From a virus (Duplodnaviria; Heunggongvirae; Uroviricota; Caudoviricetes), in IMG/VR virus record IMGVR_UViG_3300011952_000013: a DNA stretch of 7,762 nucleotides; one strand, written 5' to 3'. Below are positions 1 to 7,641 of this stretch, one piece after another; positions within the stretch are counted from its first letter, which is position 1; every line of letters begins with the position of its first letter. The translations under genes were made by a program, and so were the position numbers. Under the pieces are notes generated by a model. The model ran no database searches, was not told the DNA's origin, and worked only from the letters and a program-made list of their open reading frames with translations.

Positions 1-1539
1 GATGAAATTGCTGCCATGCTGGCGGATGAGACCTGGATGTCCGGTGCCGAATGTCTGGCACATGGATTTGCTGATCAGGTGACGCCAGCCGTTAAGGCAA
101 TGGCATGTATTCAGTCAAAACGTACAGAGGAATTTAAAAAGATGCCGGAATCCATTCGAAACATGATTACTCCGCCACGCAACAGTGCTCCACGCGTACA
201 GGATGATGAACCTGCAGCCTCCCGGACGCCAGTGCAGGCAGCAGCACCCGTGGTGGATGAAAACAGTATCCGTGCGCAGGTACTGGCAGAGCAAAAAGCG
301 CGTGTAAACGGTATTAATGATCTGTTTGCCATGTTTGGCGGGCGTTATCAGACGCTGCAGGCTCAGTGTCTTGCCGATCCTGAGTGTTCGCTGGAGCAGG
401 TCCGCGAAAAGCTGTTGAACGAGATGGGGCGCGAGTCCACGCCATCCAATAAAAATACACCGGCTCATATTTATGCTGGTAACGGTGATTTTGTGGGGGA
501 CGGGATCCGCCAGGCGCTGATGGCGCGTGCCGGATTTGAAAAAACCGAACGTGATAATGTCTACAACGGGATGACCCTGCGTGAATATGCCCGTATGTCA
601 CTGACTGAACGGGGTATTGGGGTTTCCGGTTATAACCCGATGCAGATGGTCGGTGCGGCGTTCACCCACAGTACGTCTGACTTCGGTAATATTCTGCTGG
701 ATGTTGCGAACAAAGCCATTCTGCAGGGCTGGGAAGATGCTCCTGAAACCTATGAACAATGGACGCGGAAAGGTCAGTTGTCTGATTTTAAAATTGCCCA
801 TCGTGTGGGTATGGGGGGCTTCAGTGCTCTGCGTCAGGTGCGTGAAGGGGCGGAATATAAATACGTCACCACCGGAGATAAACAGGCCACTATTGCACTG
901 GCGACCTATGGCGAGCTGTTCAGTATCACCCGTCAGGCCATTATCAATGATGATCTGAATATGCTGACCGATGTCCCGATGAAACTGGGCCGTGCGGCGA
1001 AATCCACTATTGCCGATCTGGTTTATGCCATTCTGACGTCTAACCCGAAAATCTCCACAGATAATGTAAGTCTGTTCGATAAAGCGAAACATGCAAACGT
1101 ACTGGAGAGCGCTGCAATGGACGTGGCATCGCTGGATAAAGCCCGCCAGTTGATGCGCGTTCAGAAAGAGGGGGAGCGTCATCTGAATATTCGTCCTGCG
1201 TTCGTACTGGTACCGACGGCGATGGAGTCTGTTGCTAACCAGGTCATTCGCTCCTCAAGTGTCAAGGGGGCTGACATTAACGCCGGTATTATTAACCCGG
1301 TGAAAGATTTTGCGACCGTTATTGCAGAGCCTCGTCTTGATGATAACAGCCAGACCACCTTCTACCTGGCTGCGTCAAAAGGCTCCGATACGATTGAAGT
1401 GGCTTATCTCAACGGTGTGGATACGCCATATATTGATCAGATGGAGGGCTTCAGTGTGGATGGCGTGACAACGAAAGTGCGTATTGACGCCGGTGTCGCG
1501 CCAGTTGATCACCGCGGTCTGGTGAAATGTACGGCGTAA
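1..1539 (+). CDS. 5'-truncated fusion ORF: C-terminal end of a ClpP/S49-like prohead protease, a Pro/Ala-rich linker, then an HK97-fold major capsid protein. The true start lies upstream of the window.
   Basis: Frame 1 is open from nt 1 (no stop before 1537-1539 TAA), so the ATG at 16 is not the real start. The first ~25 residues (DEIAAMLADETWMSGAECLAHGFADQV) resemble the C-terminal helix region of ClpP-family proteases. Residues ~50-80 are low-complexity P/A/Q-rich. The remaining ~400 aa have the size and character of a phage major capsid protein. The gene is followed by a terminator hairpin, and its position is immediately upstream of the head-tail joining genes. Confidence 0.8.
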   Translation, partial: DEIAAMLADETWMSGAECLAHGFADQVTPAVKAMACIQSKRTEEFKKMPESIRNMITPPRNSAPRVQDDEPAASRTPVQAAAPVVDENSIRAQVLAEQKARVNGINDLFAMFGGRYQTLQAQCLADPECSLEQVREKLLNEMGRESTPSNKNTPAHIYAGNGDFVGDGIRQALMARAGFEKTERDNVYNGMTLREYARMSLTERGIGVSGYNPMQMVGAAFTHSTSDFGNILLDVANKAILQGWEDAPETYEQWTRKGQLSDFKIAHRVGMGGFSALRQVREGAEYKYVTTGDKQATIALATYGELFSITRQAIINDDLNMLTDVPMKLGRAAKSTIADLVYAILTSNPKISTDNVSLFDKAKHANVLESAAMDVASLDKARQLMRVQKEGERHLNIRPAFVLVPTAMESVANQVIRSSSVKGADINAGIINPVKDFATVIAEPRLDDNSQTTFYLAASKGSDTIEVAYLNGVDTPYIDQMEGFSVDGVTTKVRIDAGVAPVDHRGLVKCTA

Positions 1540-2819: not shown

Positions 2820-3219
2820 ACCGACATACACAAATCCGCCAGGTCGTACTGGCACGCCTTCGGGAACAGTGTGGAGACAGCGCCACGTTTTTTGACGGGC
2901 TTCCGGCATTTATTGATGCGCANNNNNNNNNNCTGCCGTGGCGGTGTGGCTGAGTGATGCTCAGTACACCGGAAAAATGACGGATGAAGATGACTGGCAG
3001 GCTGTTCTGCATATTGCCGTCTTCATCCGGGCACAGGCACCGGATTCAGAGCTGGATATGTGGATGGAGAGCACCATTTTCCCGGCCCTGAATGATGTAC
3101 CGGCACTTTCCGGACTCATCGACACCCTGAACCCACTCGGTTTTAACTATCAACGTGATAATGAGATGGCCACCTGGGCGATGGCGGAAATCACGTACCA
3201 GATCACGTACACGAATTAA
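2816..3219 (+). CDS. U: Tail terminator protein, lambda gpU-like. The reading frame is interrupted by a 10-N run (2923-2932), across which the frame appears to change (frame 2 before, frame 1 after).
   Basis: ATG at 2816 gives MNRHTQIRQVVLARLREQCGDSATFFDGLPAFIDA. After the N-run, frame 1 gives AVWLSDAQYTGKMTDEDDWQAVLHIAVFIRAQAPDSELDMWMESTIFPALNDVPALSGLIDTLNPLGFNYQRDNEMATWAMAEITYQITYTN. Both halves are collinear with remembered lambda gpU (ATFFDGRP..., AVAVYLTGAEYTG..., ELHIEVF...PDSELDAWMES...). Stop TAA at 3217-3219. Confidence 0.8.
2923..2932. other. Run of 10 N (assembly gap or masked bases) inside the gpU-like gene.
   Basis: Literal n characters in the sequence. Confidence 1.
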
Positions 3220-3229
3220 GGAGGTGGTA

Positions 3230-3973
3230 ATGACCACACCAAATCCACTGGCAAAGACGAAAGGTGCGGGGACGACGTTCTGGATGTATACCGGCAACGG
3301 CGATGCGTTTGCGAACCCTTTGTCGGACACTGACTGGCTGCGTCTTGCGATGGTGAAGGATCTGCAACCTGGCGAAATGACCGCTGATGCAGAAGATGAC
3401 ACTTATCTCGATGATGAAGATGCAGACTGGAAAACGACAACCCAGGGGCAGAAATCCGTTGGTGATACTTCGGCGACGCTGGCCTGGCGTCCGGGTGACA
3501 GCGGGCAGAAAAAACTGGTTCAGTTGTTCGACTCCGGTGAAGTCTGCGCGTTTCGTATCAAATATCCCAACGGCACTGTTGATGTTTTCCGTGGCTGGCT
3601 GAGCTCACTGGGTAAAACCATTGCCTCAAAAGACGTGATGACCCGCACTGTGAAAATCAGCGGTGTGGGGCGTCCGTATCTGGCAGAGGAAGGCACTGAA
3701 ACCGTGAGCGTTACCGGGCTGACAGTATCACCGGCGTCTGCCAGTGTAAAAGTGGGAGCAACCACCACGCTGACCTTTACAGTAAAACCTGACGGAGCCA
3801 GTGACAAAGCGATCAGTGTGCATTCGTCAGATCCACAGACTGCCACGGTTACCCTGAACGGACTTGTGGCCACGGTAAAAGGCGTGAAGCAGGGCAGTGT
3901 CAGCATTGTGGGCATGACCGCTGACGGGAATTTTGTGGCTGTGGCTGCGGTGACTGTCAGCGCCGCAGGTTAA
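3230..3973 (+). CDS. V: Major tail tube protein, lambda gpV-like (247 aa), with a C-terminal Ig-like (Big_2-type) domain.
   Basis: Strong RBS AGGAGG (3219-3224) 5 nt upstream of ATG 3230; the ORF-track start at 3155 has no RBS and overlaps U. The translation MTTPNPLAKTKGAGTTFWMYTGNGDAFANPLSD...YLDDEDADW...NGTVDVFRGW is closely collinear with remembered lambda gpV. The C-terminal ~90 aa are T/V/S/A-rich in a beta-sandwich-like pattern typical of Big_2 domains. Confidence 0.93.
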   Translation: MTTPNPLAKTKGAGTTFWMYTGNGDAFANPLSDTDWLRLAMVKDLQPGEMTADAEDDTYLDDEDADWKTTTQGQKSVGDTSATLAWRPGDSGQKKLVQLFDSGEVCAFRIKYPNGTVDVFRGWLSSLGKTIASKDVMTRTVKISGVGRPYLAEEGTETVSVTGLTVSPASASVKVGATTTLTFTVKPDGASDKAISVHSSDPQTATVTLNGLVATVKGVKQGSVSIVGMTADGNFVAVAAVTVSAAG

Positions 3974-3993
3974 CAGGACGATACTCATCATTT

Positions 3994-4017
3994 GCCCCGG
4001 TTATCCGGGGCTTTTTT
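3994..4017 (+). terminator. Rho-independent terminator-like hairpin between the major tail gene and the chaperone gene.
   Basis: GCCCCGG (3994-4000), TTAT loop, CCGGGGC (4005-4011), then TTTTTT (4012-4017). Begins 21 nt after the V stop codon. Confidence 0.7.
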
Positions 4018-4033
4018 GCAGGTGGAGAACATG

Positions 4034-4420
4034 ATGTTTCTGAAACAGGGCACGTTTAATTATGAAAAACAGTCCGTGGTGCTCAGTGAGCTGTCCGGGC
4101 TGCAGAGAATTGAATATCTGGCGTTTGTTCAGCAGCGAACGGCAAAGTTTGATGCCGGTGAGGGAGAACTGCCGGAGGCTGAACGACAGATTGCTTTTCT
4201 GCGGATGGGGATGGATATCAATGCCTGGCTGGTTTCCCGCTCACTGTGGAATGCGGATCAGTCTAAGGATGTAGAGACGCTTTGCGCATCCGTTATTACA
4301 ACATGGTCGTATGATGCCCTGGGTGCGGGGGCGGAGATGGTTCTGTCGCTGAGCGGTATGGGGGCCATTGATAATGCCGGGGGTGATGAGCATGAGTCGC
4401 TGACGCCGGAAAAGTCCTGA
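4034..4420 (+). CDS. G: Tail assembly chaperone, lambda gpG-like (128 aa if started at 4034; ATG at 4031 is an alternative).
   Basis: GGTGGAG (4021-4027) precedes ATG 4031/4034. The product from 4034, MFLKQGTFNYEKQSVVLSELSGLQRIEYLAF, is collinear with remembered lambda gpG (MFLK...TLSELSALQRIEHLA). The ORF-track start at 3992 lies inside the terminator stem. Stop TGA at 4418-4420. Confidence 0.85.
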   Translation: MFLKQGTFNYEKQSVVLSELSGLQRIEYLAFVQQRTAKFDAGEGELPEAERQIAFLRMGMDINAWLVSRSLWNADQSKDVETLCASVITTWSYDALGAGAEMVLSLSGMGAIDNAGGDEHESLTPEKS

Positions 4421-4710
4421 CGCGGGAAATGCAGTTTGTCATGCGGCTTGCCCGGGAGTTCCGACGGGCAGACTGGCGGCGGATGCTGTCGGAAATGTCG
4501 GCCACTGAGCTTGGTGAGTGGGGCGATTATTTCCGGATGCAGAGCTTCAGTGATGTGTGGATGGATGCGCAGTTTGCCTCGCTGAAGGCATTGATCGTGA
4601 GAATGGTGTCCGGCAGCAGTGATGCTGCGGTGGCTGATTTCAGCCTTTTACCGGAAGAGAACGGGATACCGGAGCGAACGGACGANNNNNNNNNNCGGAC
4701 GAAGAACTGA
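4396..4710 (+). CDS. T: gpT-like segment of the tail assembly chaperone, in the -1 frame relative to G. Probably expressed only as a G-T fusion by programmed -1 ribosomal frameshifting near 4408-4414. Contains a 10-N run (4686-4695), so the 3' end is uncertain.
   Basis: Frame 1 is open from 4396 (upstream in-frame TGA at 4393-4395) and overlaps the last 7 codons of G. An A-rich slippery-like heptamer G_GAA_AAG sits at 4408-4414. Position between G and the tape measure gene matches the conserved G/GT arrangement of lambda-like tail operons. The ATG at 4429 has no convincing RBS. Confidence 0.65.
   Translation, partial: VADAGKVLTREMQFVMRLAREFRRADWRRMLSEMSATELGEWGDYFRMQSFSDVWMDAQFASLKALIVRMVSGSSDAAVADFSLLPEENGIPERTDXXXXRTKN
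4686..4695. other. Run of 10 N near the 3' end of the gpT-like frame, flanked on both sides by the heptamer CGGACGA.
   Basis: Literal n characters; sequence reads aaCGGACGA-N10-CGGACGAag. Confidence 1.
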
Positions 4711-4746
4711 TGCATCTTGGGGAAGGGATTTCCGGAGGCGGGCGTT

Positions 4747-7641
4747 ATGGACCAGATAGCCAACCTGGTCATTGATTTGGGGATTGATGCGGCAGAGTTT
4801 AAAAATGAAATCCCCCGTATCAAAAACCTTCTGAATGGTGCAGCCAGCGATGCAGAACGGTCTTCTGCCCGTATGCAGCGTTTTATGGAGCGTCAGACTC
4901 AGGCCGCCCGGCAGACAACGCAGGCGGCGTCTTCGGCTGCAACAGCCGCATCCGTCCATGCGCAGACAGTGGAGAAGAACGCACAGGCTCATGAACGCAT
5001 GGCCCGCGAGGTGGAGAAAACCCGCCAGCGCATGGAGGCGCTGAGCCAGAAAATGCGCGAGGAACAGGCGCAGGCCATGGCTCTGGCGGAGGCTCAGGAT
5101 AAAGCGGCTGCTGCGTTTTATCGTCAGATTGACAGTGTGAAACAGGCCAGTGCGGGGCTGCAGGAATTACAGCGTATTCAGCAGCAGATCCGACAGGCCA
5201 GAAACAGTGGCGGGATTGGTCAGCAGGATTATCTGGCGCTGATTTCTGAGGTTACGGCGAAAACCCGTGTTCTTACACAGGCTGAGGAAGAGGCTACCCG
5301 ACAGAAAGTGGCGTTTATCCGTCAGCTTAAAGAGCAGGCAACCCGCCAGAATCTTTCTTCTTCTGAGTTGCTTCGTGCTAAGGCTGCCCAGCTGGGGGTA
5401 AGCAGTGCTGCAGAAGTGTATATCCNNNNNNNNNNACCGAAAGGCAGGATGCTTGGCGGGGTTATTGGCGGTATTGCCGCGGCTGTCTATGGTCTGGGTA
5501 AAGCCTGGTATGACGGTCAGAAGGAGGGGGAAGAATTTAACCGCCAGCTGTCGCTGACGGGGCATTATGCCGGAGTCACTGCCGGGCAGCTGTGGACGCT
5601 CAGTCGTGCTATTTCCGGGAATGGTATCACGCAACATGCTGCAGCCGGTGCGCTGGCTCAGGTGGTGGGTAGTGGTGCATTTCGTGGAAACGATATCGGT
5701 ATGGTGGCGAGAGCTGCCGCACAGATGGAGCGATCGGTTGGCCAGTCGATCAGCGATACCATAAATCAGTTTAAGCGGCTGAAGGATGATCCTGTAAATG
5801 CCGCGAAGGCTCTGGACAATGAGCTGCATTTTCTTACTGCCACTCAGCTTGAGCAGATACGTGTCCTTGGGGATCAGGGACGGTCCAGTGATGCTGCACG
5901 GATAGCCATGTCTGCACTGGCAGAGGAAACCGGTCGGCGTACTGCGGATATTGATAATAACCTCAATGCGCTTGGTAGTACGCTGAAGTATCTGTCTGAT
6001 TTGTGGAGTCGTTTCTGGGATGCGGCCATGAATATTGGTCGTGAAGACTCGCTGGATGAACAAATTGCCGCTTTACAGGAGAAAGTGTCGCGGGCGAAAA
6101 GACTCCCCTGGACGGCATCATCTTCTCAGGTTGAATACGATCAGCAGCGTCTTAACGATCTTCAGGAGAAAAAACGCCAGAAGGATTTGCAGGATGCAAA
6201 AGAGCAGGCAGAGCGGAATTATCAGGAGCAACAGAAACGCCGTAATGCTGAAAATGCTGCACTGAACCGGATGAATGAAACTGAAGCAGCACGGCATCAG
6301 CGTGAAATTGCGCGTATTAATGCCATGCAGTACGCCGATCAGGCTGTCAGGGATGCGGCGATACAACGTGAAAATGAACGTTACGAGAAAGCCCTGGCAT
6401 CCGGTAAGAAAAAAACACGCGAAACCCGTAATGATGAGGCCACCCGCTTATTGCTGCAGTACAGTCAGCAACAGGCACAGGTGGAAGGGCAGATTGCTGC
6501 TGCAAGACAGTCAGCAGGCATTGCCACTGACAGGATGACAGAAGCGCATAAACAGCTTCTGGCTCTGCAGCAGCGCATCAGCGACCTGGACGGGAAAAAA
6601 CTGACGGCAGATGAAAAGAGTGTGCTTGCCCGTAAAGATGAACTGATTCAGGCATTGACGCTGCTGGATGTAAAACAGCAGGAGCTTCAGAAACAGACGG
6701 CACTCAACGAGCTGAAGAAAAAAACAATTCAGCTGACCAGTCAACTGGCTGAAGAAGAGCGCGCTCAGCGTCAGCAACATGACCTGGATATCGCCACGGT
6801 GGGTATGGGTGATCAGCAGCGGCAGCGATATCAGGTACAACTGAGTCTTCGCCAGAAATACCAGCAACAGCTGGAGCAGTTGAGGCGGGATAGTGAGCAG
6901 AAAGGGACATATAACACGGATGACTACAGAAAGGCCGAGCAGGCGCTGACGGAGAGCCTGAACCGACAACTGAGTGAGAATCGCCGTTACTGGCAACAGC
7001 TTGAAATTGCTCAGGGTGACTGGAAAAACGGAGTCCTGCGTGCACTCCAGAATGTCACTGAGAATGCGGATAACACAGCCGGGACAGTGGAACAGTTGTT
7101 CACGTCTGCGTTCAGTAGCATGAGTGACTGGCTGGCGACATTCTGTACTACAGGCAAACTCAATTTCAAATCCTTCACCTCTTCTGTGCTGTCAGATATG
7201 TCCAGAATCATGGCTCAGATAGCTTTAATGAAAGCGGTAAAAGGCATTGCTTCCGCGCTGCCTTTTGATTTTGTAGCTAATGCTGATGGCGGTGTTTATC
7301 AGTCGGCTGATTTGAGTCGCTACAGTGGCACGGTGGTTAACCGTCCGACGTTTTTTGCTTTTGCAAAAGGCGCGGGTGTGATGGGGGAAGCTGGGCCTGA
7401 AGCCATTCTGCCACTGCGTCGTGGTGCTGACGGTAAGCTGGGGGTTGTGGCGGATATTGGTGGTTCAGGTATGGCGATGTTTGCCCCGCAGTACAACATC
7501 GAGATCAATAACGATGGCACGAACGGGCAGATAGGTCCGGCTGCCCTGAAGGTGGTTTATGACCTTGGGAAAAAAGCGGCAGCGGACTTTATGCAACAGC
7601 AGGCCCGTGATGGTGGTCGGTTAAGTGGAGCATATCGGTAA
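4747..7641 (+). CDS. H: Tail length tape measure protein, lambda gpH-like (964 aa), with a 10-N run at 5427-5436 inside the gene.
   Basis: GGAGG (4733-4737) precedes ATG 4747; the ORF-track start at 4717 is a TTG with no RBS. The N-terminus MDQIANLVIDLGIDAAEF resembles lambda H (MAEPVGDLVVDLSLDAARF). There is a long Q/E/R/A-rich coiled-coil-like central region. The C-terminus NNDGTNGQIGPAALKVVYD...DGG matches the conserved lambda H C-terminus. Stop overlaps the gpM start (TAATG). Confidence 0.93.
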   Translation: MDQIANLVIDLGIDAAEFKNEIPRIKNLLNGAASDAERSSARMQRFMERQTQAARQTTQAASSAATAASVHAQTVEKNAQAHERMAREVEKTRQRMEALSQKMREEQAQAMALAEAQDKAAAAFYRQIDSVKQASAGLQELQRIQQQIRQARNSGGIGQQDYLALISEVTAKTRVLTQAEEEATRQKVAFIRQLKEQATRQNLSSSELLRAKAAQLGVSSAAEVYIXXXXPKGRMLGGVIGGIAAAVYGLGKAWYDGQKEGEEFNRQLSLTGHYAGVTAGQLWTLSRAISGNGITQHAAAGALAQVVGSGAFRGNDIGMVARAAAQMERSVGQSISDTINQFKRLKDDPVNAAKALDNELHFLTATQLEQIRVLGDQGRSSDAARIAMSALAEETGRRTADIDNNLNALGSTLKYLSDLWSRFWDAAMNIGREDSLDEQIAALQEKVSRAKRLPWTASSSQVEYDQQRLNDLQEKKRQKDLQDAKEQAERNYQEQQKRRNAENAALNRMNETEAARHQREIARINAMQYADQAVRDAAIQRENERYEKALASGKKKTRETRNDEATRLLLQYSQQQAQVEGQIAAARQSAGIATDRMTEAHKQLLALQQRISDLDGKKLTADEKSVLARKDELIQALTLLDVKQQELQKQTALNELKKKTIQLTSQLAEEERAQRQQHDLDIATVGMGDQQRQRYQVQLSLRQKYQQQLEQLRRDSEQKGTYNTDDYRKAEQALTESLNRQLSENRRYWQQLEIAQGDWKNGVLRALQNVTENADNTAGTVEQLFTSAFSSMSDWLATFCTTGKLNFKSFTSSVLSDMSRIMAQIALMKAVKGIASALPFDFVANADGGVYQSADLSRYSGTVVNRPTFFAFAKGAGVMGEAGPEAILPLRRGADGKLGVVADIGGSGMAMFAPQYNIEINNDGTNGQIGPAALKVVYDLGKKAAADFMQQQARDGGRLSGAYR
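5427..5436. other. Run of 10 N inside the tape measure gene; the reading frame is preserved across it.
   Basis: Literal n characters; homology to lambda H is on the same frame on both sides. Confidence 1.

What the first reader, a model, noticed from the sequence alone, without database searches (positions are those of the whole stretch)
4396..4420. Candidate programmed -1 frameshift site for G-T fusion with a non-canonical heptamer
The T frame opens at 4396 and overlaps only the last 7 codons of G, which constrains the shift site to 4396-4417. The only slippery-like sequence there is G_GAA_AAG (4408-4414), not the lambda-type G_GGA_AAG. After a -1 shift the A-site Lys tRNA re-pairs perfectly (AAG to AAA), but the P-site Glu tRNA would re-pair GAA to GGA with a central G.U wobble. 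Frameshift efficiency may therefore differ from lambda, or shifting may be A-site only.
Basis: partly seen in the sequence, partly recalled or inferred. Interest (0 to 1): 0.5.

Follow-up and report, generated by a model that had tools for sequence, protein, structure and literature searches.

The report
Known-type G-T tail chaperone frameshift site
This is the low-frequency ribosome back-slip site that lambda-like phages use to make their longer G-T tail-assembly chaperone; its GGAAAAG variant is the commonest form in this phage family and is already annotated in phages N15 and LLS, so the finding is correct but ordinary.

Summary
G (4031-4420) ends ...ACG CCG GAA AAG TCC TGA. The -1 (T) frame opens after the TGA at 4393-4395, so the overlap is 22 nt, and G_GAA_AAG (4408-4414) is the only slippery-like run in it.

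The window is a prophage tail module 95-99.5% identical to mEp460/cdtI-type phages. It is present in 1,834 of 5,426 complete E. coli genomes.

The heptamer lies at the position homologous to lambda's G_GGA_AAG: the Lys is invariant and sits 11 T-frame codons before LAREF. Among 42 diverged lineages, 34 carry GGAAAAG, 4 GGGAAAG, 3 GGCAAAA and 1 GGGAAAA. The preceding codon always ends in G, although it encodes six different amino acids. The ATG at 4429 occurs in only 2 of 32 lineages. I found no conserved downstream RNA structure.

A programmed -1 shift at this heptamer is therefore well supported. It is not new. GenBank already annotates GGAAAAG as the -1 slippery sequence in N15 and in phage LLS, and Gifsy-1/-2 T are annotated as frameshift products.

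One point remains of interest: E. coli biochemists used this exact heptamer as a poorly slipping control.

Separately, T's apparent stop at 4710 is an artefact of a scaffold gap (N10 plus a 7-nt duplication). The true stop is at 4773-4775.

The parts
3230..3973 (+). Major tail tube protein gene (lambda V-like, with a C-terminal Ig-like domain), immediately upstream of G
   Evidence: Pfam Phage_TTP_12 (6e-67) plus Big_2. Coordinates transferred from the PGAP CDS in NZ_CP042899.1.
3994..4017 (+). Terminator-like GC hairpin plus T-run between V and G
   Evidence: Scan result, 7 GC pairs followed by TTTTTT. Annotated as a rho-independent terminator in mEp460 and Ayreon.
4031..4420 (+). Gene G, tail assembly chaperone, 129 aa, 0 frame, stop TGA at 4418-4420
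   Evidence: Pfam Phage_TAC_2, 3e-39; translation. PGAP starts it at the second ATG, 4034.
4393..4395 (+). TGA stop in the -1 frame that sets the 5' limit of the possible shift window
4408..4414 (+). Shift heptamer G_GAA_AAG: P-site Glu codon 4409-4411, A-site Lys codon 4412-4414. After the shift the codons read are GGA (4408-4410) and AAA (4411-4413), and decoding resumes at GTC 4414-4416.
   Evidence: Homologous to lambda's G_GGA_AAG. Present in 34 of 42 diverged lineages. The same heptamer is annotated as the -1 slippery sequence in N15 and LLS.
4414..4775 (+). T segment of the G-T fusion (-1 frame), 114 aa once the 17-nt assembly artefact at 4686-4702 is removed. True stop TGA at 4773-4775. 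The predicted G-T fusion is 242 aa with junction ...SLTPEK|VLTREMQF...
   Evidence: Pfam Phage_tail_T, 8e-11.
4429..4431 (+). ATG used by PGAP and most phage records as an independent start for T. Not conserved in the family and has no properly spaced Shine-Dalgarno sequence.
   Evidence: annotations; ATG at this codon in 2 of 32 lineages.
4686..4702 (.). Scaffold gap (N10, 4686-4695) plus a 7-nt duplicated contig end (cggacga, 4696-4702). This assembly artefact falsely ends the T frame at 4710.
4747..7641 (+). Tape measure protein gene (lambda H-like). It overlaps the end of T. An internal N10 at 5426-5435 stands in for 172 nt.
   Evidence: Pfam TMP_2, Tape_meas_lam_C and TMP_4.

Best explanation
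G_GAA_AAG at 4408-4414 is the programmed -1 ribosomal frameshift site of a lambda-type tail assembly chaperone gene pair. Most ribosomes read GAA AAG TCC and stop at TGA (4418), giving the 129-aa G protein. A small fraction slip back one base while tRNA-Glu is on GAA and tRNA-Lys is on AAG. tRNA-Lys (the single E. coli species, anticodon mnm5s2UUU) re-pairs perfectly with AAA. tRNA-Glu re-pairs with GGA through G:C, a central G.U and A:U. Decoding then continues at GTC (4414) through the T frame to 4775, giving a 242-aa G-T fusion with junction ...TPEK-VLTRE.... By analogy with lambda, many G and a few G-T molecules coat the tape measure protein, and the T part recruits the tail tube protein. 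Shown here: the frame geometry, homology of the site to lambda's, nucleotide-level conservation of the heptamer including its first G, lack of a conserved T start codon, and lack of a conserved downstream RNA structure. Inferred: that slippage occurs, its frequency (probably low per cent or below), and that both tRNAs slip together rather than tRNA-Lys alone. Given that a shift occurs, I put the two-tRNA version at about 0.55-0.6.
For: 1. G and T belong to Pfam Phage_TAC_2 and Phage_tail_T and lie between the tail tube and tape measure genes.
2. In the G-T fusion alignment the shift-site Lys is invariant and aligns with lambda's ...SAGK|VFDGE.... The heptamer always sits 11 T-frame codons before LAREF/M.
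3. Heptamer census over lineages less than 90% identical: GGAAAAG 34, GGGAAAG 4, GGCAAAA 3, GGGAAAA 1. Flanking positions are far less conserved.
4. The codon before GAA is CCG, GCG, CTG, TTG, ACG, GTG or ATG. These are 7 codons for 6 amino acids, and all end in G, against a background third-position G frequency of 0.34 (about 5e-4 for 7 independent codon types). The selected -1 frame codon is therefore GGN, as P-site re-pairing requires.
5. Across lineages the permitted shift window shrinks to the heptamer. In L043 the T frame opens 3 nt upstream of it, and in L030, L046, L161 and L162 the G stop follows it directly.
6. ATG 4429 is present in 2 of 32 lineages. In 17 of 32 the first T-frame ATG lies beyond the invariant LAREFxRPDWR motif.
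7. GenBank annotates this heptamer as the -1 slippery sequence in N15 and in LLS (there with a joined CDS). Gifsy-1/-2 T are annotated as made by frameshifting.
8. A_AAG is the most shift-prone tetramer in E. coli, and heptamers of the form X_XXA_AAG are the most efficient (Sharma et al. 2014, PMC4066793).
Against: There is no direct evidence here of a fusion protein for this clade. In a reconstituted E. coli system the identical heptamer (AUG GAA AAG) gave 'mainly the 0-frame product' and was chosen as the poorly slipping control (Peng et al. 2019, PMC6924986). A_AAG without a stimulator is barely above background in vivo, about 0.15%. No conserved stimulatory RNA structure lies downstream: z = -0.4 for the window's own sequence and a consensus energy of -1.35 kcal/mol with no covariation. 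The window also lacks the SD-like GAGG that its closest relatives have 10 nt upstream. How enough G-T is made is therefore unexplained. The GGCAAAA variants cannot re-pair their P-site tRNA-Ala well, which shows that good P-site pairing is not indispensable in every lineage.
Confidence: 0.85

Rival explanations
1. The shift occurs at this site, but only tRNA-Lys slips, on the tetramer A_AAG (4411-4414). This could happen during translocation, or in the P site while the next codons (UCC, then the UGA stop) are being decoded. tRNA-Glu re-pairing would play no part. The protein product is identical to that of tandem slippage.
For: A_AAG is the best -1 tetramer in E. coli. [quoted passage not shown] Related lineages with G_GCA_AAA followed directly by TAG have essentially no P-site re-pairing potential, yet they keep the G/T arrangement. 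The G stop codon lies 0 or 1 codon after the heptamer in 26 of the 41 representatives tallied (one search's 32 plus one search's 9 new ones).
Against: Heptamer position 1 is G in all 42 lineages, although it is a third-codon position under six different amino acids. Pure A_AAG slippage puts no constraint there. Tetramer shifting needs a strong pseudoknot to reach per-cent levels, and none is conserved here. In 15 of those 41 representatives the stop is 5 codons away, so a nearby stop is not a general requirement.
Confidence: 0.3
2. T is an independent gene translated from ATG 4429, as PGAP and most phage records annotate it, and no fusion protein is made.
For: An in-frame ATG exists at 4429 in this clade. 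RefSeq/PGAP, mEp460 and Tritos annotate T as a separate CDS from that ATG.
Against: That ATG is present in only 2 of 32 diverged lineages. In 17 of 32 the first ATG would remove the invariant LAREFxRPDWR motif. The only SD-like bases (GGGA, 4424-4427) lie 1 nt from the ATG. Conservation in the T frame starts at the heptamer, upstream of the ATG. Lambda T itself is made only as G-T (Atkins et al. 2016 review).
Confidence: 0.04
3. The non-canonical heptamer is a sequencing error or a mutation of GGGAAAG in a decaying prophage.
For: The window is a gapped draft scaffold with three N10 runs.
Against: GGAAAAG is identical in about 200 independent loci, in complete genomes 99.5% identical to the window, and in cultured phages.
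Confidence: 0.01
4. The frame change is made by RNA polymerase slippage on the A run rather than by the ribosome.
For: None specific.
Against: The run is only 4 A. From general knowledge, bacterial transcriptional slippage needs runs of about 7 or more. The conserved features (G at position 1, AAG rather than AAA at the end) fit tRNA re-pairing, not polymerase slippage.
Confidence: 0.01

Closest known systems
Phage lambda G / G-T programmed -1 frameshift (G_GGA_AAG; Levin, Hendrix and Casjens 1993; Xu, Hendrix and Duda 2004, 2013, 2014, as cited in the Atkins et al. 2016 review, PMC5009743)
   Same: Homologous G and T proteins and the same gene order V-G-T-H. The shift site is at the homologous codon: the Lys is invariant and lies 11 codons before LAREx. 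The A-site codon is the same, AAG moving to AAA. There is no conserved downstream structure.
   Different: The P-site codon is GAA (Glu), not GGA (Gly), so re-pairing has a central G.U instead of three standard pairs. The G stop lies 1 codon after the heptamer rather than 5. G-T is 242 aa against 279 aa.
Phage N15 genes 14/15 and phage LLS genes 11/12 (GenBank NC_001901.1 and PQ299149.1)
   Same: The identical heptamer GGAAAAG in the identical register at the homologous position. It is explicitly annotated as 'slippery sequence for -1 translational frameshift' in N15 and as 'minus-one programmed translational frameshift site GGAAAAG' in LLS.
   Different: The proteins are only about 42% identical to the window's T. 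Their G stop is 5 codons downstream (lambda-like), not 1. The codon before the heptamer is GCG or GTG rather than CCG.
Gifsy-1, Gifsy-2 and Fels-1 prophages of Salmonella
   Same: Same clade. The sequence CCGGAAAAG(T/C)CCTGA is shared in an otherwise 68-71% identical region. The Gifsy T genes are annotated as made by frameshifting.
   Different: They lack the ATG found at window position 4429. Gifsy-2 has no T-frame Met before the conserved domain.
Actinobacteriophage tail chaperone sites G_GGG_GAA ('fivetwo') and the 'twofour' motif class of PRFect (PMC10885494)
   Same: These are tail-assembly-chaperone -1 sites that depart from X_XXY_YYZ. The same GAA-to-GGA re-pairing of tRNA-Glu through G:U is proposed there. 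GGAAAA fits the 'twofour' pattern.
   Different: In those sites tRNA-Glu is the downstream (A-site) tRNA. The hosts and the proteins are unrelated.
IS3-type A_AAG tetramer frameshifting and dnaX A_AAA_AAG
   Same: Both rely on E. coli tRNA-Lys slipping from AAG to AAA.
   Different: Those sites depend on a strong downstream pseudoknot or hairpin, and dnaX also on an upstream SD. Neither feature is conserved here.

Membership tests
Lambda-type tail assembly chaperone G/G-T programmed -1 frameshift | [quoted passage not shown] | tested here: met
   V 3230-3973, G 4031-4420, T frame 4396-4775, tape measure from 4747.
Lambda-type tail assembly chaperone G/G-T programmed -1 frameshift | Sequence homology of the two parts to lambda gpG and gpT | tested here: met
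   Pfam PF06894 (3e-39) and PF06223 (8e-11). The fusion is 35% identical to lambda G-T over its full length.
Lambda-type tail assembly chaperone G/G-T programmed -1 frameshift | A conserved slippery sequence within the overlap, at the position of lambda's mapped site | tested here: met
   The heptamer aligns with G_GGA_AAG. It is GGAAAAG in 34 of 42 lineages and GGR/GGC-AAA-R in all.
Lambda-type tail assembly chaperone G/G-T programmed -1 frameshift | The downstream ORF lacks its own conserved translation start | tested here: met
   An ATG at the 4429 position occurs in 2 of 32 lineages. In 17 of 32 the first ATG lies after the conserved motif. This window's clade does carry an ATG, so for this locus alone the test is only indirect.
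Lambda-type tail assembly chaperone G/G-T programmed -1 frameshift | A fusion protein is made at a low fixed ratio (about 1:30 in lambda) and is needed for tail assembly | not testable with these tools
   Needs a western blot, mass spectrometry or genetics. The ratio for lambda is taken from the Atkins 2016 review.
Canonical X_XXY_YYZ tandem-slippage heptamer | Positions 1-3 identical (XXX), so the P-site tRNA keeps standard pairing at the first two positions after the shift | tested here: not met
   Positions 1-3 are G, G, A. tRNA-Glu on GGA has a G.U at the middle position (described as a second-position mismatch in PMC6924986).
Canonical X_XXY_YYZ tandem-slippage heptamer | Positions 4-6 identical (YYY), so the A-site tRNA re-pairs | tested here: met
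   AAA at 4411-4413, with the A-site codon AAG moving to AAA.
Z_ZZN tetramer (A_AAG) single-tRNA frameshift site, IS3 type | A_AAG in the correct register | tested here: met
   A4411 and AAG 4412-4414.
Z_ZZN tetramer (A_AAG) single-tRNA frameshift site, IS3 type | A strong downstream stimulatory structure, needed for per-cent-level shifting on a tetramer (Sharma 2014) | tested here: not met
   Folding z-scores of -0.4 and +0.2. The 27-sequence consensus gives -1.35 kcal/mol with 0 covarying pairs. No Rfam match.
Z_ZZN tetramer (A_AAG) single-tRNA frameshift site, IS3 type | No sequence constraint on the three bases upstream of the tetramer | tested here: not met
   G at heptamer positions 1 and 2 is invariant across 42 lineages, including at a synonymous or variable codon position.

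The most novel reading that the evidence does not exclude
G_GAA_AAG, not lambda's textbook G_GGA_AAG, is the ancestral and prevailing shift site of enterobacterial lambda-type G/T genes: it occurs in every major clade of a rough G-T tree, with the lambda clade nested among them. Selection on its first G implies that a P-site tRNA-Glu re-pairing through a middle-position G.U is functional in vivo. Yet the same heptamer behaves as nearly non-slippery in a purified E. coli system, and no RNA stimulator is conserved. If so, either these phages need far less G-T than lambda, or an unrecognised stimulator raises the shift. Candidates are the acidic nascent G tail, the nearby stop codon, or the frequent but not universal SD-like GAGG 10 nt upstream.
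Probability: 0.3. Interest if true: 0.45.

Novelty: already known. Interest (0 to 1): 0.22.

Why it matters
In practice, about a third of complete E. coli genomes carry this module, and RefSeq/PGAP and most phage records annotate T as a free-standing gene starting at ATG 4429 rather than as the frameshifted G-T fusion. Annotation pipelines that look only for X_XXY_YYZ will miss the commonest site of this family. Mechanistically it offers a natural, very widespread test case for how much P-site mispairing (a central G.U) a bacterial -1 frameshift tolerates without an RNA stimulator. The same heptamer has already been used as a negative control in kinetic work. Neither point changes what is known about tail assembly chaperones.

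Tried and rejected
1. Downstream stimulatory structure. Folds of 4415-4500 and 4380-4470 are no more stable than shuffled sequence. RNAalifold on 27 diverged homologues found only a 4-bp helix with no covariation. Rejected.
2. Known RNA families. An Rfam E-value scan of 3900-4900 gave only a chance lncRNA hit.
3. Upstream SD-like stimulator. On average it is enriched 6-20 nt upstream (median -4.3 against -2.2 kcal/mol, Mann-Whitney p = 6e-5). It is absent in the window itself (-2.2), in lambda and in the Enterobacter/N15-type lineages, and it is confounded by the Glu/Asp-rich G tail. I do not claim it as part of the mechanism.
4. Nearby 0-frame stop as a required element. The stop lies 0, 1 or 5 codons after the heptamer in different lineages that share the same heptamer. 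Rejected as a general requirement.
5. Literature. Full-text searches for GGAAAAG, G GAA AAG and G_GAA_AAG together with frameshift or tail found no phage paper, only Peng et al. 2019. Xu et al. 2004 and 2014 are not in the library, so I could not check whether their table lists this heptamer or whether N15's site was tested experimentally.
6. My first translation of G used the wrong register and was corrected.

Full report
**What is in the window.** The 7.8-kb window is the head-to-tail part of a lambdoid prophage. It is 95-97% identical over the G/T region to phages mEp460, cdtI, Tritos, HannyBb and Ayreon. It is 99.4-99.9% identical over its whole length to a prophage in E. coli CFSAN061763. 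The same G/T segment, at 95% identity or more, occurs in 1,834 of 5,426 complete E. coli genomes. Pfam assigns 3155-3973 to the lambda tail tube family plus an Ig-like domain. It assigns 4031-4417 to Phage_TAC_2 (lambda gpG, 3e-39), the -1 frame after 4396 to Phage_tail_T (8e-11), and 4747-7638 to tape measure families. A terminator-like hairpin lies between V and G at 3994-4011.

**Checking the observation.**
- G ends ACG CCG GAA AAG TCC TGA, with the stop at 4418-4420.
- The -1 frame has a TGA at 4393-4395 and is open from 4396, so the overlap is 22 nt.
- GGAAAAG at 4408-4414 is the only homopolymer-containing stretch in the overlap. It lies in the register G_GAA_AAG.
- The heptamer is not rare in itself: 3 copies in the window against 1.24 expected. 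Any significance must come from position and conservation.

**An assembly artefact next to the site.** The window has three N10 runs. Compared with a 99.5%-identical complete genome:
- 2923-2932 stands for 8 nt.
- 5426-5435 stands for 172 nt of the tape measure gene.
- 4686-4695 lies between two contig ends that overlap by 7 nt, so cggacga is duplicated and 17 nt are added.

This last gap falsely terminates the T frame at 4710. With the artefact removed, T reads ...ERTDEELMHLGEGISGGGRYGPDSQPGH* as in mEp460. It stops at 4773-4775 and overlaps the tape measure start at 4747. The predicted G-T fusion is 242 aa.

**Homology of the site to lambda's.** I built fusion proteins for the window, Gifsy-1, Gifsy-2, Fels-1 and lambda by reading the 0 frame through the heptamer and then the -1 frame. 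The junction aligns without gaps: window ...TPEK|VLTREMQFVMRLAREFRRADW against lambda ...SAGK|VFDGELSFALKLAREMGRPDW. The Lys is an invariant column. In every locus examined the heptamer lies exactly 11 T-frame codons before the LARE motif. The window's site is therefore the positional homologue of lambda's G_GGA_AAG and differs by one base (GGA to GAA).

**Survey of relatives.** One scan of species-representative genomes gave 69 loci. Two scans of viral contigs gave 160 more.
- After collapsing to lineages less than 90% identical over 187 nt around the site, 42 remain: GGAAAAG 34, GGGAAAG 4, GGCAAAA 3, GGGAAAA 1.
- GGAAAAG is found in prophages of Escherichia, Salmonella, Citrobacter, Kosakonia, Kluyvera, Leclercia, Atlantibacter, Klebsiella, Phytobacter, Enterobacter, Pluralibacter, Trabulsiella, Sodalis, Symbiopectobacterium and Providencia.
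- In a rough neighbour-joining tree of G-T proteins it occurs in every major clade, and the lambda GGGAAAG clade is nested among GGAAAAG lineages.
- Heptamer positions 1, 2 and 4-6 are invariant, while the surrounding 30 nt are mostly 30-70% conserved.

**Nucleotide-level selection.**
- The codon that supplies heptamer position 1 is CCG, GCG, CTG, TTG, ACG, GTG or ATG. These encode six different amino acids and always end in G, where the third-position G frequency in the same genes is 0.34.
- In the 34 GGAAAAG lineages the Glu codon is always GAA and the Lys codon always AAG, although elsewhere in the 32 G genes tallied AAA outnumbers AAG 78 to 54.
- The bases in the -1 frame (GGA AAA) are not translated if the shift occurs here, so their conservation is not explained by protein coding.
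- Across lineages the window in which a shift could occur shrinks to the heptamer. In the Edwardsiella locus the T frame opens 3 nt upstream of it, and in the Providencia-type loci the G stop follows it directly.

**No independent start for T.** The ATG at 4429 is present in only 2 of 32 lineages. In 17 of 32 the first T-frame ATG lies after the invariant LAREFxRPDWR motif. In the window the only purine-rich bases upstream of the ATG (GGGA, 4424-4427) lie 1 nt from it. PGAP, mEp460 and Tritos nevertheless annotate T as a separate CDS from this ATG, and Ayreon from a later one.

**Stimulators.**
- The downstream sequence folds no better than shuffles (z = -0.41 and +0.23).
- An alignment fold of 27 diverged homologues gives -1.35 kcal/mol with no compensatory change.
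- Rfam has no match.
- Pairing potential to the 16S 3' end is on average higher upstream of the site than elsewhere in G (p = 6e-5). It is absent in lambda, in the N15/Enterobacter types and in the window itself, which has GAGTCG where its nearest relatives have GAGGCG or GAGGTG. The Glu/Asp-rich tail of G is a confounder.
- The distance from the heptamer to the G stop is 0, 1 or 5 codons in different lineages.

None of these is a general requirement.

**Mechanism.** The most likely mechanism is a -1 slip with tRNA-Glu on GAA and tRNA-Lys on AAG. tRNA-Lys re-pairs perfectly with AAA. tRNA-Glu pairs with GGA through G:C, G.U and A:U.

The invariant first G is what two-tRNA slippage predicts and what slippage of tRNA-Lys alone on A_AAG does not. 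The tRNA-Lys-only model still keeps appreciable weight, for two reasons. The GGCAAAA variants have almost no P-site re-pairing potential. And Peng et al. (2019) used exactly AUG GAA AAG as the sequence on which 'only one tRNA can slip' and obtained mainly 0-frame product in a purified E. coli system.

Sharma et al. (2014) found A_AAG to be the best tetramer. It was barely above background without a stimulator, and the X_XXA_AAG heptamers were the most efficient. All the models give the same fusion peptide.

**Comparison with what is known.** The G/G-T frameshift of lambda and its conservation in tailed phages are textbook material (review text). The specific heptamer is also on record:
- The N15 GenBank entry marks 10027-10033, which reads GGAAAAG, as 'slippery sequence for -1 translational frameshift'.
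- Phage LLS carries a joined CDS and a feature named 'minus-one programmed translational frameshift site GGAAAAG'.
- Gifsy-1 and Gifsy-2 T are annotated as made by frameshifting.
- The PRFect paper lists a 'twofour' motif class for tail chaperone sites and discusses GAA-to-GGA re-pairing through G:U.

**Verdict.** The remaining open point is modest: how does a heptamer that biochemists treat as poorly slippery deliver enough G-T without a conserved stimulator? I could not read Xu et al. 2004 or Ravin et al. 2000, so I do not know whether the N15 site was verified experimentally.

Noticed in passing
window 2923-2932, 4686-4702, 5426-5435: Three N10 scaffold gaps. They stand for 8 nt, for a 7-nt contig overlap (a net 17 extra nt that breaks the T frame), and for 172 nt of the tape measure gene. 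ORF ends and lengths near them are artefacts.
   Followed up: yes
window 3994-4017: Strong terminator-like hairpin (7 GC pairs plus a T-run) between the tail tube gene and G. It is annotated as a rho-independent terminator in mEp460 and Ayreon and would lower G/T/H transcription relative to V.
   Followed up: partly
window 4394-4399: The window reads GAGTCG (Glu-Ser), where nearly all close relatives read GAGGCG or GAGGTG. The relatives thus have an SD-like GAGG ending 10 nt before the heptamer, the spacing that stimulates dnaX frameshifting, and the window has lost it. The Glu codon at this position is conserved in 97% of lineages.
   Followed up: partly
L014, L016, L166 (G_GCA_AAA TAG); L045 (G_GGA_AAA TAG); L030, L046, L161, L162 (G_GAA_AAG TAG): Some relatives place the G stop codon directly after the heptamer, and three use GGCAAAA, where the P-site tRNA-Ala cannot re-pair. 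These may shift by P-site tRNA-Lys slippage with a stop codon in the A site.
   Followed up: partly
L048-L060, L065-L068 (genome contigs): Short, low-coverage contigs in assemblies of unrelated bacteria (Neobacillus, Oceanobacillus, Kitasatospora, Shewanella, Leeuwenhoekiella, Pseudoxanthomonas and others) share with phage lambda a G/T overlap identical at the nucleotide level over the segment compared. This is most likely laboratory or sequencing-control contamination.
   Followed up: no
window 4429-4775 and the homologous CDS in RefSeq and phage records: PGAP and most phage submissions annotate T as a stand-alone CDS from ATG 4429 (Ayreon from a later ATG), with no ribosomal-slippage join. 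This affects roughly a third of complete E. coli genomes.
   Followed up: yes
window 16-1539: The large ORF at the left end corresponds to a PGAP 'ClpP-like prohead protease/major capsid protein fusion protein' in the 99%-identical reference prophage.
   Followed up: no
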